This document shows positions 24,001 through 30,000 of a stretch of 64,000 nt of DNA, in pieces; the first letter of the stretch is position 1; each line of letters opens with the position of its first letter. Source of the DNA: an uncultured bacterium. Lineage in GTDB: Bacteria > Babelota > Babeliae > Babelales > Vermiphilaceae. Made by a program: the position numbers. The stretch spans positions 448,001 to 512,000 of the forward strand of contig OY970172.1 in assembly GCA_963707655.1 (NCBI GenBank), in the 5' to 3' direction.

Positions 24001-27000
24001 ATTAGATGTTAAACAAACTTGTTTTAAATCGAAAAACAGTTCATGCAAAGGTGCACTCAAAAACATTGATGAACTGATTATAATGCCGGTTCTCTCTGAA
24101 GAAAAAATATGTATACCGCTGCAAGAACTATCTTTGCCAGACGACGCGCTGGTGTGTGAAGTTATACGCTGTTATAAAACAGCAAAATTTCAAGCGCTTA
24201 TTGCCAGTGAAATACCGCAGTAATACCTATTTTCTAGCAAATCCCCTTTGCTTTTATTTTCCGTATACGACGAGTATCTTTTTCCAATCAATAAACACTT
24301 TTTCATAGGTTGTATCAAGAAAGAGAGCAAGTCTATTTACGACTTCGCGTGCATTTTTGTGATTCGATTTTTCAAATAACGGCGCTTTTTCAGAATCTTT
24401 GAATATTTCTTTTATTTTTTTCTGGATATCGCGCAAGTCAGCAAGTCTTTTTTCAACTCTTCCTCTATTTGCATCATTTAGGGCAAATGGCTTTTTGCTG
24501 AATGTTGTTGCATAGAATTCTTTTAAAGAATTAGTTAAATCAGCGCTTGCTTGCCAGAGATCATCAACTTTTTTATTAAGAGAAGATGAAGGAACTTGCT
24601 CTTTAACAAAAGTGCGTATCTCTTTTATCAGATCAAACCATTTATTTGAGTCTTCCGGCTTCATCCGTTCAAGCAGAAGGTTATCTTTACCGAACACAAG
24701 AGTGTGAGTGCTGGTGATTGCCATAAAAAGACTGTCTTTGGTCACTGCGGGTTTAGCTGGTGCGGCGTGGGTTAAAGGGCTGATGCCGGCTAGCACGAGA
24801 GCGAGTGAAATAAGTACTTTATTCATTATAGAACTCCTTATTTTTCTTTTTTTAATGAAGCATTATTAGACTAACTGAAGTGAATATTAGTTTTCAATAA
24901 AAAATTACCCCTACCGTGTAAGCCCCCACACAATCATTAAGGAAACAGGGCAAAATGGGGTTATACCCCTCACAAACATTTCTATATGAATTTTTATTGA
25001 TTAATTGATAGTTAATAAAATTCATTTTTACAATAATAAAATTGCTATTTTCGTGAAAATCGTTATATTTAGGGGATAAATGGTCAGGTTATATTATAAA
25101 ATGTGAGGATACGAATGGAAGTCTCAAAACGCTCCCTTCTGCTTGTTGTTACATTACTTGTTTCAACATCTCTTATGTATGCGAATGAGCCTGTTAAGGG
25201 TTTCAAAGCGCTTGTCGGCACCGTTCCTGCAGAAATTCAAGAACTGGCAGACTATTTTAAGGGTAAACAATCTGTTTTTAACGATTATTCGGTTAAGTTG
25301 CCCAAAGGTATTTTGTTAATGGGGCAACCGGGCATAGGAAAAACAAGCCTAGCCAAAGCATTATCTGAAGAAATAGAGTGCAATTTTATCTATAAAAATG
25401 CCTCTGATTTGGAAGATGCCGATGCTGTAGAAGAATTATTTGAACAAGCACGTGCCGATGCCAAAAAGAACAAATATGGCAAAACAGTTATATTTATAGA
25501 CTATTTTGATGTTTTTTGTTTACAAGGCAATAATGCCGGTGCCGATACAAGAAGCAATGTCTTGGCTCTGATTAATGAGATGGACGGCTTTAAGTATGAC
25601 GATTCAGTTCTTGTAATTGCTGCATGTCATGCTGACAACTTTGATAAATCATTAATACGCGCCGGTAGATTTGATAAAGTTGTTGAAATGGCTTTGCCAA
25701 ATCCCGCGCAACGTATTGCCATGATCAAAAAATTTCATGAAAATTGTAAAATTCCTTTCGATGCAGCTATCGATTTCAATAAAATAGCCGCTCTATCTTT
25801 TAATTTTACGCCCGCCGATCTTAAACAGTTAGTTAATCATGCCCATGCCTGTGCAAAAGCAGAATCAACAAAGACTATTACTGACAAACAGATGCTGTCA
25901 TCTCTTATTACCATATTGCGTACCAAGAGCCGCAGCGATAAAGATTTAACGGTCAGAATTAAAGTGATAATGGATTTGCTCAATAAAAAGAAAGATGAAA
26001 AAAGAGGGTTTGCCCGTTTAGTCGGTTCCGTGCCTGATGAGATAAAAGAATTAGTTGAACAAATACGGGATGATGCTCGTTTTAAAAAATTTAAATTAGA
26101 TATTCCCAAGGGGATATTGCTTTCCGGTCCTCCAGGTACAGGTAAAACTACCCTGGTAAGAGCGCTTTCTGAAGAAGCGGGCTGTGAATTTATGGCAGTC
26201 TCCGGCGCTGAGTTTGTTGACAAATTCGTCGGCGGTGGTTCGCAAAAAATAAGAGATCTTTTTAAAGAAGCACGCCAAAAAGCGGTAAATAGTGAATCAA
26301 AAAAAACCATTATCTTTATTGATGAAATAGATGCAATTGGTACGCGCCAGGGTAACTCTATGGATTCTACCATTACTGAATTGCTAACACAGATGGATGG
26401 TTTTAATGAGGATGATTCTATCATTGTTATGGCTGCGACAAATAATCCAGGCAATCTTGATGCCGCATTGCTCAGACCGGGAAGATTTAATAAAATTCTC
26501 CAAATTGGATTGCCTGATCTTGCAAAACGAGAAGATCTTTTAAAGTATTACACGCAATCAATTCCTCTTGCTGCTGGGATTGATTTGAAAAAAATTGCAA
26601 AAGTAGCCAATAATTTTAGCCCTGCTGATTTGCGAGAATTGGTACAAAAGGCCTCTTCATTGGCACTTAAAGGTGGCTCGACCCAGTTGCAAGAAAAACA
26701 TTTTGTTGAAGGACTGAGAAAAACTCTTACTGAAAGAATGATTAAGGGTGAAAAAGATATCCAACAACAATTAGATGCTTTGGATGCTTTATTTAATGGT
26801 AAAGAAAATACCAAAGGCTTTAAACGCCTTGCCGGTGGTGTTGAACCAGAAATTGAAGATCTGGTAAAAATGCTCAATGGTGAATTTGACTATGCGAGTT
26901 TTGGCTTGCCATTCCCTAAAGGCATCTTGCTTGCGGGCCCTCCGGGTACCGGTAAAACTGCCTTGGTAAGAGCATTGGCTGAAGAATCTGGTTGTGAATT

Positions 27001-30000
27001 TATTCAAGCAAAAGGTTCTGATTTTATTGAAAAATATGTTGGTGTGGGTGCTCAACGTGTTCGTGAGTTATTTGATGAAGCACGAAAAAAAGCCAAAGGC
27101 AATGCTTATGGCAAGACCATTATATTTATTGATGAATTAGATGCTATTGGATCACGCTCTACTTCTGATAACTCAGAAACACAACGTACGGTAACAGAAT
27201 TGCTTACTCAAATGGATGGATTCTACAAAGATGAATCAGTAATCGTGATTGGTGCTACCAATGCACCCTCAGCGCTGGACCAGGCTTTATTGCGTGCAGG
27301 AAGATTTGATACGATTATCGAAATACCGTTGCCAAACCTTGCCAAGCGTAAAGCATTATTTACTTTCTATGGTAAAAATAGACCTATAGCACCAGCTGTT
27401 GCGATTGACAAACTTGCGATAGAGATGGAAGGCTGCAATGCCGCTGATATTAAAAATCTTATCGATAAAGCTGCCCAACTTGCTATGAGGGCAAAACAAA
27501 AAACTATTTCGCAACAGCATTTTGATCAGGCGCTTGCTGCAATTCAAGCTGCTGAAGATAAAAAAAATACTCGTTATGTATAAAGTGGAGAATACTATGA
27601 ACATGAGAATACAACCATTAATCTGTTTATTACTGTTATGGGCTGCCGATGCATGCACAATGCAACAACAAGTACAAAATCAGCAGGTAGCTGCAGTTGC
27701 GGCGAAAAAAAAGCAGAAAAAACAGAAAGTCAATGCTGAAACTAAAGAGAGCGAAAGCGCTACTGCGACTAATGTTGTAACTGAAGAAAGCAATGTTGCC
27801 AACACTCCCGTCGCAGAAGAAAAAACAAAAGAACATAAAAAAAGAGTTCTTCTTTGTTCTCTGTGTGGAGACCCAAAGTGTCCTTGGTCCCAAGAGGTTG
27901 AAGATTAATTGTACAAAGTGGAAAATATTATGAATAAAAGAATGCAATCATTGATCTGTTTATTACTGTTATGCGCTGCCGATGTCTGCGCAATGCAGCA
28001 ACAACAAGTTCAACCACAAGATCACCAGGTAGAAGCAGGTGCAGTGAAAAAGCATAAAAAACAGAAAGTCGATGTAGATGCAGAAACTAAAGAGAGCGAA
28101 AGCGCTGCTCCGGCCGATATTGCAACCGAAGAAAAAAATGTTGCCGATACCGCTGCGAGTGAAAATACAACCACTGATAATGCTTCGCAATCGATAGAAA
28201 CAAATGCAGCAGATAATAAGACAGAGGCAAAAACAAAAAAACATGTTCGCATGTGTCATCATGGTCGTCATTGTGGGAAACCTGCTGCTGATTGTCCGCA
28301 TGAGCAGTATTTTGAAAGCAGGGGTATTACAATGCCTTGTGGATGCCCTGAATGCCGCATGACGGAGGAATTCGAGAAGACAATTCAAGCTGCCATTGCA
28401 GAGATGAAAGTGAGAGGTATTCCGTTTGGTTATGGGTACCATTCTTAATTGCTTATGACCAATCTCGCCGAATTAGACATAGAGCGGAATAACCCCTGGT
28501 CCGCTCTTGCTCACCTGCTCGCCGGTTTTTTCATCAATAAAAATTTCTTGTAATGACGGGTCGTATGAAAACTGCTTTTTAGTGCAGTTCATTTTTTCAT
28601 ACAATCTCTGCCAGATAGGAAAAGCGGTATGAATAGGAAATACATTTATCCCTAATGATTGATTATCATCGCAGCCGATATAAATACCGGTGGTTAATGT
28701 GGGCGTTGCTCCAATGAACCAGCAGGTACGCGAATCATTGGTTGTTCCCGTTTTACTCACCACCTGCGCATCAACAATCTGATTTCCCAGTTTGCAGCGC
28801 ACCCTATTTATGCCAAGTTCTAAAACTTTTGCAATTTGTCCGTTGATACGGCTTTCAATCACCCTTCCGCCGATACTGTTTTGTTTAAAGATTTTTGTAC
28901 CCCATCTATCTTTAACCCATTTAACACAATGCGGCTCAATGTACGTGCCATCATGCGCAAAAATATTAAACAGCCCGGTGGCCTGCATGAGTGAAACATC
29001 AACACAGCCCAATGCCAATGACGGGTACGGATTGTGACGCGCATCGATGTTGCATTTTTCTGCCAAGGCAATGATTGGCGCCGCTCCTGTTTTTAAAAAT
29101 GTTTTTATCGCAACAATGTTATTTGAATGAGACAGCGCATAGGCGCGCGTAATTTCCCCAAGAAATTTATGGTTATAATTTTTTGGCTTCCACAAAGAGC
29201 CGCTACTTTCAAATTCGAATGGTTCATCAACTTCTGTATCTGCCAAGCTTAATCCTGCATTCAGTGCTGCTGCGTACACTATCGGTTTTAAAATAGAGCC
29301 CAATTGCCGCTTAGCTTGCAAGGCGCGATTAAACTTTGATTGCGTGAATTGATAGCCGCCAACCAGCGCTTTTATTTCACCCGTATCGGGCTGCATGCTG
29401 AGCAATGCCCCATCAACATTCATGTTGAGCGCTGCGCGTAAATCAGTAATTTGCTGAGCAAATGCCTTGTTGGCCTTTTCTTGCAGTGCCCTGTTGAGCG
29501 ATGTCTGAATAGTCAGACCTCCCGCATACAACTCTTTGCGACCAAAAAGCAGTTCTAGCTGTTGCCGTATCATTTCTTGCGCGTGGGGTGCCAGTGCTGC
29601 TTCTTCTGAAACAATGAGCTTAAGCTCTTTCTGACTGAGTTCTGCATAGTGCTCTTCGCTGATGAATGACAGTTTTTGCATTTGCGAAAGCACCACATTC
29701 CGCCGCTGTTGCGAAGACAGTGGATACAGCAGAGGACAATATCTGCCCGGTGAGCGAATAATGCCGGCCAAAACCGCCGCTTGATCAACAGTAATTTCAG
29801 TTGCTGAACAATGCCAAAAGCGTTGGCATGCCGCTTCGATGCCGTAAATACCACAGCCAAAATAGATATGATTAAGATAGGTTTGCAAAATCTGTTCTTT
29901 GGTGCATTGATATTCAATAATCAGCGCATACAGCTGCTCTTTGATTTTGCGTTTAAAGGTTTTTTGTGGGTCAAAAAAAAGTAATTTTACCAACTGTTGC

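What a model noticed while it worked through the whole genome (the two positions that open the first line are those of the whole stretch)
25115..27583. CDC48/p97-like double-ring AAA+ ATPase and three Msp1-like AAA+ proteins, all with signal peptides
An 822-aa protein with two AAA+ modules most like archaeal CDC48/VAT (g00468) starts with a signal peptide in place of the CDC48 N-domain, as do its orthologues across Dependentiae. A tandem trio of single-module AAA+ proteins most like ATAD1/Msp1 and Rix7 (g00687-g00689, 693490-697406) and the FtsH-like g00359 without a protease domain have such leaders as well. I read them as ATP-driven unfoldases or extractases that act beyond the inner membrane, either in an ATP-filled periplasm or, after secretion, in the host cytosol. 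There a p97/Msp1 mimic could pull proteins out of host membranes or complexes. New would be exported AAA+ machines as a class of symbiont factors.
Evidence so far: g00468 starts MEVSKRSLLLVVTLLVSTSLMYA|NEP... Its AAA modules at 310-818 align with A. fulgidus CDC48 (34% over 541 aa, E 5e-88) from that protein's residue 194 on. 241 database proteins match at E<=1e-50. Of the 29 nearest (P0697-P0725, 791-869 aa, 47-69% identical), 25 start with a hydrophobic leader and 4 (P0704, P0711, P0714, P0722) are shorter or lack it. Bathyarchaeota, Thaumarchaeota, Chloroflexi and Ectothiorhodospira CDC48 proteins start with the N-domain. The N-termini of g00687, g00688, g00689 and g00359 and the Swiss-Prot hits ATAD1 (31%; g00687), RIX7 (31%; g00688) and FtsH (g00359), with none for g00689, are in calls 109, 110 and 112. 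The signal-test control is in call 154.
(Added by a program. Inside this text positions count along the whole contig: contig position 448,001 is position 1 of the stretch shown here. "Call 12" and the like, gene names such as g00115 and contig names such as C1 are that model's own, and its searches are not shown. The text may have been shortened before it was handed on; [...] marks where a part breaks off. The agent that wrote the report below was given it as the finding of a first reader that could run no searches.)

Follow-up and report, generated by a model that had tools for sequence, protein, structure and literature searches.

The report
Exported three-module AAA+ unfoldase operon
A protist-dependent bacterium encodes an ATP-driven protein-unfolding machine built from three copies of the FtsH motor, carrying an export signal and always paired with small cysteine-rich proteins, which suggests it works outside the bacterial cytoplasm on ATP taken from the host.

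Summary
The ORF is real: window 25115-27583, 822 aa. It has three tandem AAA modules, not two. They are a degenerate AAA module that keeps Walker A and the Arg fingers but has no pore loop and no catalytic Glu.

Each module is closest to FtsH. The linkers and the C-terminal tail still align with the start of FtsH's protease domain. In a module tree CDC48 D1/D2 fall elsewhere. In the AF2 model, modules 2+3 stack like p97/NVL.

The N-terminal leader is signal-peptide-like, shorter and less hydrophobic than FtsH TM1 of the same phylum. It occurs in at least 27 of 29 orthologues.

New here: in 11 of 12 loci the gene is followed within 2-20 nt by small leader-bearing proteins of no known family. 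The gene is rare (5 of 260 other species genomes of the phylum). It sits in a 5-kb insertion that a same-genus genome lacks.

About a third of this genome's ORFs carry leaders. Secreted AAA ATPases (Babela, 2015) and a "secreted M41" (Chromulinavorax, 2019) are already in print.

Verdict: probably an exported unfoldase, a new variant of a known kind. Its compartment and substrate are untested.

The parts
25105..25109 (+). Shine-Dalgarno-like GAGGA, 5 nt before the ATG
   Evidence: Read directly. There is no such motif before the internal Met21 codon.
25115..25183 (+). Signal-peptide-like leader, residues 1-23 (MEVSKRSLLLVVTLLVSTSLMYA), with the proposed SPase I site after A23
   Evidence: The apolar core is 17 aa and the best 19-residue Kyte-Doolittle window is 1.50, against 2.45 for the window's own FtsH TM helices. 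Conserved in at least 27 of 29 orthologues.
25184..26005 (+). AAA module 1 (residues 24-297), degenerate. Walker A GQPGIGKT and RAGRFD are kept. The pore loop-1 is deleted, Walker B reads DYFD, and the sensor-1 Asn is His.
   Evidence: (FtsH_fam 140.7 bits). K76 and both Arg are kept in 31/31 rows; Glu is kept in only 3 of 31.
26006..26815 (+). AAA module 2 (residues 298-567), canonical: GPPGTGKT, pore loop [20 protein letters not shown]
   Evidence: (243.8 bits). The catalytic residues are invariant in 31/31 rows.
26816..27583 (+). AAA module 3 (residues 568-822) and the stop codon. Canonical, with pore loop KYVG. The tail EDKKNTRYV aligns with Fts[14 protein letters not shown].
   Evidence: (250.8 bits).
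27587..27590 (+). GGAG, 6 nt before the start of the first small gene. The gap to the AAA stop codon is 13 nt.
27597..27908 (+). Small partner gene, type A (103 aa): leader, then MQQQVQ, a K/Q/E-rich stretch, and C-terminal LCSLCGDPKCPW
   Evidence: No family was found.
27930..28448 (+). Small partner gene, type B (172 aa): leader, then MQQQQVQ, a disordered stretch (AF2 pLDDT <50 for residues 30-97), and a Cys/His-rich domain (residues ~100-165, pLDDT 79-91)
   Evidence: No family or fold match was found.
23493..28472 (.). A 5-kb variable segment between murG and the PBP1A gene. It holds three other small leader-bearing ORFs and the AAA operon.
   Evidence: in the same-genus genome G169 the murG end and PBP1A lie about 750 bp apart on one contig.

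Best explanation
The gene encodes a Sec-exported, FtsH-derived AAA+ unfoldase without a protease.

Inferred sequence of events:
1. The 23-residue leader is cleaved.
2. The 799-aa mature protein starts directly with AAA module 1.
3. Module 1 binds ATP but should not hydrolyse it and has no pore loop. It most likely serves as the assembly ring.
4. Modules 2 and 3 are complete motors. They stack as in p97/NVL and thread polypeptides through a central channel.
5. The likely form is a hexamer of three stacked rings.

The gene is transcribed together with one to three small exported proteins. Each has a leader, a conserved MQxQ start of the mature chain, a long disordered K/Q-rich stretch and a small Cys-rich domain. 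These are its likely adaptors or clients.

The machine works outside the cytoplasm and runs on host ATP. That ATP must reach the periplasm, because the cell imports it through nucleotide transporters. The compartment is either the periplasm or, after type II secretion or vesicle release, the host cell.

Shown: the module anatomy, the FtsH descent, motif conservation, leader features and their conservation, the gene pairing and the patchy distribution. Inferred: cleavage, export, hexamer formation, unfolding activity, partner binding and the compartment.
For: Anatomy:
- Three PF00004 and three lid matches.
- Each module is closest to FtsH_fam.
- The linkers and the C-terminal tail align with the first M41 helix of the window's own FtsH.
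- Modules 1, 2 and 3 each form a clade across 8 orthologues (support 99/100/89). CDC48 D1/D2 form a separate clade (quick tree).

Function kept. In 31 aligned orthologues:
- Modules 2 and 3 keep the Walker A Lys, Walker B Asp-Glu, the sensor-1 Asn and both Arg in 31/31 rows.
- The module 3 pore loop is Y28/F2/W1, then V31, then G31.
- Module 1 keeps the Lys and both Arg in 31/31 rows, keeps Glu in only 3 of 31, and has no pore loop in any row.

Stacking: model residues 296-811 superpose as one unit on NVL (Z 28.1, rmsd 3.5 A, 481 aa) and on Cdc48/p97 D1-D2 (rmsd 3.4-3.9 A over 450-487 aa).

Leader:
- Apolar core median 12 aa (range 7-17), against 16 (16-21) for FtsH TM1 of the same phylum.
- 19-residue hydropathy 1.46 against 2.55.
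- Net charge +1.6 on the N side against +0.15 on the C side (n=27 and 22).
- There is no other hydrophobic segment in the protein.
- Some orthologues carry a 45-aa N/Q-rich spacer between the leader and module 1.

Machinery in the genome: two signal peptidase I genes, two secretins and three TLC-family transporter genes.

Partner genes:
- In 11 of 12 loci a small gene follows. Where the gap was measured (window and five metagenome contigs) it is 2-20 nt.
- Met22, the first residue after the leader, and three Cys are invariant in 10 rows.
- No terminator-like site lies between the genes.

Precedent: AAA-Ulp1 proteins with signal peptides in Babela (PMC4378268). In Chromulinavorax, 44% of CDS carry signal peptides and M41 is listed among secreted peptidases (PMC6561590).
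Against: - No validated signal-peptide predictor was at hand, so the leader calls rest on my own rules.
- A first crude rule called only 22 of 31 orthologues.
- The stricter rule passes 4 of the genome's 6 leader-bearing AAA proteins. It fails the 357-aa protein (no K/R before the core) and g00359.
- I know of no periplasmic or secreted bacterial AAA+ ATPase that has been shown experimentally (recalled, not searched exhaustively).
- ATP outside the inner membrane is an assumption.
- A hexamer that forms in an ATP-filled periplasm would be too large for a secretin.
- The ancestor, FtsH, is a membrane-anchored cytoplasmic enzyme.
- The AF2 model has pTM 0.47, so the position of module 1 relative to modules 2 and 3 is uncertain. 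The p97-like stacking may also reflect what the predictor learned from p97.
- The gene is rare (5 of 260 genomes), so it cannot be a core envelope function.
Confidence: 0.55

Rival explanations
1. The hydrophobic N-terminus is an uncleaved membrane anchor and the AAA rings stay in the cytoplasm. The protein would then be a protease-less FtsH paralogue working at the inner face of the membrane, like its ancestor.
For: The modules descend from FtsH. ATP is certain only in the cytoplasm. Msp1-type AAA proteins use an N-terminal anchor with a cytosolic ring (recalled).
Against: - The apolar core (median 12 aa) and the hydropathy (1.46) are well below those of FtsH TM1 in the same phylum (16 aa, 2.55).
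- The positive charge lies on the N side, which by the positive-inside rule puts the C-terminal part outside.
- A small residue at -1 recurs at the end of the leader.
- Module 1 begins about 5 residues after the leader in this protein. In some orthologues 45 low-complexity residues are inserted there, so the spacing is not constrained.
- The co-transcribed small proteins carry the same kind of leader.
Confidence: 0.2
2. The leader is a signal anchor that is not cleaved. The three rings sit on the periplasmic face of the inner membrane and handle the very large flow of Sec-exported proteins, as a resident envelope quality-control or release motor rather than a secreted effector.
For: About a third of the ORFs carry leaders, and 44% are reported for Chromulinavorax. 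The charge orientation is N-in. A hexamer could not pass a secretin (inference).
Against: The gene is absent from 255 of 260 other genomes of the phylum, from the same-genus genome and from the syntenic site in G169. That is hard to reconcile with a general envelope function. The leader core is short for a stable anchor.
Confidence: 0.12
3. The three modules form half of a flat six-module ring, completed by a second chain, as in single-chain multi-AAA motors. They would not form three stacked hexamers.
For: The representative library holds relatives with up to six matched AAA stretches in one chain (P0125, 2124 aa). pTM is 0.47, so the domain arrangement is uncertain.
Against: Modules 2+3 superpose as a unit on stacked D1-D2 protomers of NVL and Cdc48 at 3.4-3.9 A. 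Relatives with two to four AAA modules end in an M41 protease domain, which in solved FtsH forms a six-fold ring (recalled). That fits stacked rings.
Confidence: 0.1

Closest known systems
FtsH (AAA module of the membrane-bound ATP-dependent zinc protease)
   Same: All three modules score best against FtsH_fam. They are 34-43% identical to the window's own FtsH AAA domain, and each module still ends in the stretch that opens the M41 domain. Single modules superpose on FtsH 2ce7 (Z 27.2, rmsd 2.3 A, 44% identity).
   Different: There is no pair of TM helices, no periplasmic FtsH_ext domain, no M41 protease and no HEXXH. It has three modules instead of one and a short cleavable-type leader.
CDC48/p97/VAT/NVL/Rix7 (type II AAA ATPases with stacked D1 and D2 rings)
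   Same: Residues 309-817 align collinearly with VAT (E 6e-87). In the AF2 model, modules 2+3 take the D1-D2 arrangement. It is a protease-free unfoldase with pore loops in two rings.
   Different: There is no N-domain. The NCBIfam CDC48 score of 439 is below the cut-off of 802.65. CDC48 D1/D2 form their own clade away from these modules. It carries an extra degenerate N-terminal module and an export leader.
Babela massiliensis family of AAA ATPase + permuted Ulp1-like peptidase proteins with signal peptides (PMC4378268, passages read)
   Same: Same phylum. An AAA ATPase behind a predicted signal peptide, proposed to be secreted into the host cytoplasm, with type II secretion as the only secretion system detected.
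   Different: That family has one AAA domain fused to a peptidase and was reported as specific to Babela. This protein has three FtsH-type modules, no peptidase and separate small partner genes.
Plasmodium HSP101 of the PTEX translocon (PMC6550532, seen as listing and abstract only)
   Same: An AAA+ unfoldase of an intracellular parasite that acts beyond the parasite's own plasma membrane. That HSP101 has two rings and a signal peptide is recalled, not read in the abstract.
   Different: HSP101 belongs to the ClpB/Hsp100 family, is eukaryotic, and has a defined pore partner and export function. Nothing comparable is shown here.
Ycf2-FtsHi chloroplast import motor (PDB 8xqw title; papers seen in listing only)
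   Same: FtsH-derived AAA modules that have given up proteolysis and serve as a pulling motor. Module 3 superposes on an 8xqw chain (Z 26.0, rmsd 2.3 A).
   Different: It is a membrane-anchored hetero-hexamer on the ATP-rich stromal side, with one AAA module per chain.
Multi-AAA FtsH proteins, unnamed in the databases: two modules in many genomes of this phylum, three or four in other phyla
   Same: Tandem copies of the FtsH AAA module in one chain.
   Different: They keep the TM helices, FtsH_ext and the M41 protease. Their duplications are independent of this one in the module tree.

Membership tests
Classical AAA clade (PF00004 + AAA_lid_3) | AAA core followed by the four-helix lid | tested here: met
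   PF00004 scores 366.7 bits over 3 stretches. AAA_lid_3 matches in 3 stretches.
FtsH (TIGR01241) | AAA module of FtsH type | tested here: met
   It is the best family for each module: 140.7, 243.8 and 250.8 bits.
FtsH (TIGR01241) | M41 zinc protease domain with HEXXH | tested here: not met
   There is no PF01434 match. The chain ends at ...TRYV, where the window's own FtsH reads TAYHEAGH.
FtsH (TIGR01241) | Two N-terminal TM helices around a periplasmic FtsH_ext domain | tested here: not met
   There is a single short leader and no other hydrophobic window of at least 1.4. The window's own FtsH has two TM helices at 2.45 and an FtsH_ext domain.
FtsH (TIGR01241) | Whole-protein score over the curated cut-off (600) | tested here: inconclusive
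   The score of 615 bits is the sum of three modules. Each module alone scores 141-251.
CDC48/VAT (TIGR01243) | N-terminal double-psi barrel and beta-clam N-domain (PF02359, PF02933) | tested here: not met
   Neither family appears among the 25 best-scoring Pfam matches shown, of 72 at E <= 0.01. Residues 24-297 are an AAA module.
CDC48/VAT (TIGR01243) | Score over the curated cut-off (802.65) | tested here: not met
   439.4 bits.
CDC48/VAT (TIGR01243) | Two AAA modules collinear with D1-D2 and stacked | tested here: met
   Residues 309-817 align with VAT residues 20-534 at E 6e-87. The model superposes on Cdc48/p97/NVL at 3.4-3.9 A over 450-487 aa. This rests on a predicted model only.
CDC48/VAT (TIGR01243) | Modules group with CDC48 D1 and D2 in a tree | tested here: not met
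   CDC48 D1+D2 form a clade (support 100) that excludes all Dependentiae modules (quick tree with SH-aLRT support).
Sec/SPase I signal peptide | Positive n-region, apolar h-region of about 7-15 aa, small residues at -1 and -3 | tested here: met
   by my own rules. No trained predictor was available.
Sec/SPase I signal peptide | Actual export and cleavage | not testable with these tools
   This needs reporter fusions or N-terminal sequencing.
Msp1/ATAD1 (for the trio g00687-g00689) | Closest relative is Msp1/ATAD1; N-terminal TM anchor | tested here: inconclusive
   For g00687 the best solved relative is VAT/Cdc48 D1 (E 1.8e-28), with Msp1 5w0t at E 2.9e-17. The leaders score 1.73, 1.74 and below 1.4 against 2.45 for true TM helices. 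g00688 and g00689 were not searched on their own.

The most novel reading that the evidence does not exclude
A bacterial AAA+ machine of a new build: three stacked rings from a triplicated FtsH motor, exported by Sec and run on host ATP outside the bacterial cytoplasm. It would work with dedicated small Cys-rich, largely disordered partner proteins, either to pull host proteins apart or, like Plasmodium PTEX/HSP101, to drive the parasite's own effectors across a barrier membrane. This would be the first ATP-driven unfoldase shown to work beyond a bacterial inner membrane.
Probability: 0.15. Interest if true: 0.85.

Novelty: new variant of a known kind. Interest (0 to 1): 0.6.

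Why it matters
The textbook view is that bacteria have no ATP-driven protein machines beyond the inner membrane, because the periplasm holds no ATP. 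Energy parasites that import host ATP may break this rule. This operon is a compact, testable case:
- one gene for a motor whose catalytic residues are invariant;
- a clear export-type leader;
- dedicated small partner proteins.

It also shows a route by which a housekeeping protease (FtsH) becomes a protease-free multi-ring unfoldase through module duplication. If the protein is exported and active, it adds unfoldases to the effector repertoire of protist parasites. It would also give the first three-tier member of the classical AAA clade for structural work. If it proves cytoplasmic, the leader rules used for the very large predicted secretomes of this phylum need revision.

Tried and rejected
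- Complex prediction with the mature AAA protein (residues 24-822), the type B small protein (residues 22-172) and Zn gave no verdict (score 0.00, mark 0.32). This is no evidence either way.
- The search for related loci on genome contigs chose generic Walker motifs as patterns and returned ordinary FtsH genes of many phyla.
- The small proteins have no Pfam family over cut-off. No homologue reached E <= 0.001 among 69 candidates, and the Atlas gave no usable hit. The best structural match has Z 3.4, which means nothing. No other copy turned up in this genome by motif search.
- The C-terminal [YF]-x ending looked like a proteasome-docking HbYX tail (motif recalled). I rejected this because the tail aligns with FtsH's ...AYHEAGH. 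Only 12 of 30 orthologues end exactly there; the others carry 1-6 further residues.
- Internal start at Met21 or Met22: no Shine-Dalgarno-like motif lies upstream of it, and the hydrophobic leader is conserved as protein.
- RNA evidence: no RNA holder was listed.
- Promoter-like and terminator-like sites are no more frequent than in shuffles.
- Earlier findings of the scan: nothing near this place or under my search words. One distant look-alike, a giant-virus FtsH with a leader, did not bear on this reading.
- Literature: searches for Dependentiae + signal peptide + AAA, 'three AAA' + FtsH, AAA+/signal peptide/effector/secreted/unfoldase and Dependentiae/effector/secretome found no description of this protein. 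The supplements of the Babela and Chromulinavorax papers were not opened and may list family members.

Full report
**The gene.** Window 25115-27583 (+) is an open frame of 822 codons. A GAGGA motif lies 5 nt before the ATG. The window is part of a single 1,091,075-bp contig, estimated 88.6% complete. The neighbours are a TPR protein, MurG, three small leader-bearing ORFs of unknown family, then the AAA gene, two further small ORFs, and a convergent class A penicillin-binding protein.

**Three modules, not two.**
- Pfam finds PF00004 three times and the AAA lid three times.
- Walker A motifs sit at residues 70, 338 and 608. Walker B motifs sit at 125, 399 and 669.
They are an AAA module. On its own it scores 140.7 bits (E 6.8e-41) against FtsH_fam.

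I aligned the three modules with the window's own FtsH.
- Module 1 keeps Walker A (GQPGIGKT) and the Arg-finger stretch RAGRFD.
- Module 1 has a six-residue gap exactly where modules 2 and 3 and FtsH carry the pore loop (KFVGGG, KYVGVG, VFVGVG).
- Module 1 reads DYFD where the others read DEID or DELD, and has His at the sensor-1 Asn.

The pattern holds across 31 aligned orthologues.
- Modules 2 and 3 keep the Walker A Lys, Walker B Asp-Glu, the sensor-1 Asn and both Arg in 31 of 31 rows.
- Module 1 keeps the Lys and both Arg in 31 of 31 rows. It has Glu in only 3 of 31 (Asp in 22) and no pore loop in any row.

So module 1 looks like an ATP-binding, non-hydrolysing ring, and modules 2 and 3 look like working motors.

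**Descent.** Taken singly, each module scores best against FtsH (141/244/251 bits). The proteasome-activating nucleotidase comes next (124/213/226) and CDC48 after it (94/184/173). The two linkers and the C-terminal tail (EDKKNTRYV) align with [13 protein letters not shown] of the window's FtsH. Each repeat is therefore an FtsH AAA domain plus the first turn of the protease domain, without the zinc site.

I built a tree of 72 modules. It is a quick IQ-TREE run with SH-aLRT support, because the careful run did not finish.
- Modules 1, 2 and 3 of eight orthologues each form a clade (99, 100, 89). The triplication therefore predates their divergence.
- Module 2 of two-module relatives from the same phylum groups with module 3 (support 88).
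- CDC48 D1 and D2 form their own clade (100) elsewhere.
- FtsH proteins with two, three or four AAA modules that keep the M41 protease duplicated independently.

But it has no N-domain, and its score is below the CDC48 cut-off (439 against 802.65).

**Predicted structure.** The AF2 model was built with the 31-row alignment. Mean pLDDT is 80.7 and pTM is 0.47.
- Residues 296-811 superpose as one body on protomers of NVL (Z 28.1, rmsd 3.5 A over 481 residues) and on Cdc48/p97 (rmsd 3.4-3.9 A over 450-487 residues).
- Single modules superpose on FtsH, PAN, i-AAA and a Ycf2-FtsHi chain at 2.1-2.3 A.
- This supports a stacked, type II-like arrangement of modules 2 and 3. The predictor may simply have learned this from p97.
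- The place of module 1 is not settled.

**The leader.** The N-terminus has K and R at positions 5-6, an apolar core, and MYA before the proposed cleavage site.
- Of the 29 closest database proteins, 25 start with such a leader. Two of the four exceptions (P0016, P0019) gain one when read from an upstream start on their contigs.
- I compared 27 orthologues with the TM1 helix of 22 FtsH proteins of the same phylum, after dropping the four short rows. The leaders have a shorter apolar core (median 12, range 7-17, against 16, range 16-21). Their 19-residue hydropathy is lower (1.46 against 2.55).
- Net charge is +1.6 before the core and +0.15 after it. This orientation puts the rest of the chain outside.
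- The protein has no other hydrophobic segment. The window's own FtsH has two at 2.45.
- The genome has two signal peptidase I genes, two secretins and three TLC-type nucleotide transporter genes.

Against this reading:
- My tests are home-made.
- A first crude rule called 22 of 31 orthologues.
- A stricter rule passes four of the genome's six leader-bearing AAA proteins and fails two.
- That stricter rule scores 294 of 884 ORFs of at least 120 aa at the N-terminus, against 6-9 of 884 at internal offsets. Leaders are therefore very common here. This fits the 44% of CDS reported for Chromulinavorax (PMC6561590, passages read).

**Other AAA proteins of the finding.** The genome has six PF00004 proteins with leaders:
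- this one;
- the tandem trio (414, 483 and 377 aa);
- the 820-aa g00359;

ClpB, Lon, RuvB, RecA and DnaA have no leader.

Relatives of g00687 occur in 11 other genomes. They begin with a leader in 13 of 14 loci, and the 14th is cut by the locus edge. g00688 and g00689 were not searched on their own.

g00689 has lost Walker A and Walker B. g00359 aligns with the FtsH model to its last position but reads HQAAA where HEXXH should be, so it keeps a dead protease domain. g00687 is no closer to Msp1 (E 2.9e-17) than to VAT/Cdc48 D1 (E 1.8e-28).

**Distribution.** I searched all 261 species genomes held for the phylum. Full-length copies turned up in five others:
- G249, with two copies, one carrying six in-frame stops;
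- G250, where the gene is split into two ORFs;
- G225;
- G253;
- G103.

That run scored only three candidates per genome. In five close relatives where all candidates were scored, including the same-genus genome G169 (87% complete), only ordinary FtsH and weaker AAA matches appeared.

In G169, murG and the PBP1A gene lie about 750 bp apart on one contig. In this genome they are 5 kb apart. The operon therefore sits in a variable insertion.

**Partner genes.**
- In all six genome loci the AAA gene is followed on the same strand by one to three small genes.
- In five of six further metagenome contigs, found with a family-specific pattern, such a gene starts 2-20 nt after the stop codon. The sixth has a convergent DNA glycosylase-like gene instead.
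- That makes 11 of 12 loci, across orthologues 49-69% identical.

The small proteins share an MNK start, a hydrophobic leader, and an invariant Met followed by Q-x-Q directly after the leader. A Q/K/E-rich stretch follows, then a Cys motif. Type A reads LCPxCxxxxCP[WF]. Type B reads H-x-R-x-C-P-x-C, then C, G, and C-x-C.

In the window these genes are at 27597-27908 and 27930-28448. The first has GGAG 6 nt upstream of its start. No terminator-like site lies between them and the AAA gene.

AF2 predicts residues 30-97 of the type B protein as disordered. Residues ~100-165 form a compact domain (pLDDT 79-91) with no recognisable fold match (best Z 3.4). No family, homologue or Atlas neighbour was found.

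A long unstructured N-terminal stretch ahead of a small folded domain is what an unfoldase engages. It is also what a tethering adaptor looks like. Which of the two applies is inference. Many of the small proteins carry a lysine cluster that resembles a nuclear localisation signal. That is a weak hint only.

**Reading.** The most likely account is an exported, protease-free unfoldase with an assembly ring and two motor rings. It is made together with its own small clients or adaptors and belongs to the variable, host-directed part of the genome. The compartment remains open.
- Rarity, the island location and the company of small leader-bearing ORFans favour a secreted effector.
- The size of an assembled hexamer favours the periplasm, or release by vesicles or lysis.
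- The main rival is a cytoplasmic, membrane-anchored FtsH paralogue. The leader features count against it, but only experiment can exclude it.

**Novelty.** Secreted AAA ATPases in this phylum were proposed in 2015 for the Babela AAA-Ulp1 family (PMC4378268, passages read). M41 appears among 'secreted proteinases' of Chromulinavorax (PMC6561590). My four literature searches found no description of a triple-AAA, FtsH-derived, leader-bearing protein or of its partner genes. The supplements of these papers were not opened. I rate it a new variant of a known kind.

Noticed in passing
window 14324-16193 (+): The housekeeping FtsH is split into two overlapping ORFs. ORF 14324-14953 holds a TM helix, FtsH_ext and a second TM helix. 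ORF 14913-16193 holds the AAA and M41 domains. A one-base frame change lies near 14916-14920 (...CTTGGGAGCAAAAATT...). It is either an assembly error or a real break. Fragments of a Lon-like gene and a dnaX-like gene with an in-frame TGA elsewhere in the genome hint at several such breaks.
   Followed up: partly
loci L092-L113 (22 genomes of the phylum): Many genomes of this phylum encode an FtsH of about 880 aa with two tandem AAA modules behind the usual TM/FtsH_ext N-terminus. In other phyla there are FtsH-like proteins with three modules (P0037-P0046, P0050, about 1120-1165 aa) or four (P0031, 1437 aa) plus M41. Multi-ring FtsH proteases appear undescribed in my literature search.
   Followed up: partly
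L006 and L007 (G074, G019): Two leader-bearing double-AAA genes without a protease lie in tandem (about 611 and about 570 aa, 40-48% identical to modules 2-3). This may be a heteromeric pair.
   Followed up: no
window 30984-32390 (-): A 469-aa calcineurin-like metallophosphatase (PF00149, E 1.6e-17) begins with a hydrophobic leader. It is another normally cytoplasmic enzyme type with an export-type N-terminus.
   Followed up: no
whole genome G000: About one third of ORFs of at least 120 aa (294 of 884) pass a leader test that fires on about 1% of internal segments. This is in line with the 44% reported for Chromulinavorax.
   Followed up: partly
   Followed up: partly
genome 694769-696220 (-), locus L001 1769-3220: Besides its leader, g00688 has a C-terminal Ala/Val/Gly-rich hydrophobic stretch (19-residue hydropathy 1.99 at residue 440), which may be a membrane anchor. 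g00689 next to it has lost Walker A and B.
   Followed up: no
G249:C2:440479-442860: A second copy of the triple-AAA gene in a related genome carries six in-frame stops (4 TGA, 2 TAA). It is a decaying paralogue.
   Followed up: no
P0010-P0014 and L088/L089: In one subgroup of orthologues, a Met and a 45-residue Asn/Gln/Pro-rich spacer lie between the leader and module 1. The small partner proteins also start their mature part with Met and a Gln-rich stretch. The repeated 'leader, then Met, then Q/N-rich' pattern is unexplained.
   Followed up: no
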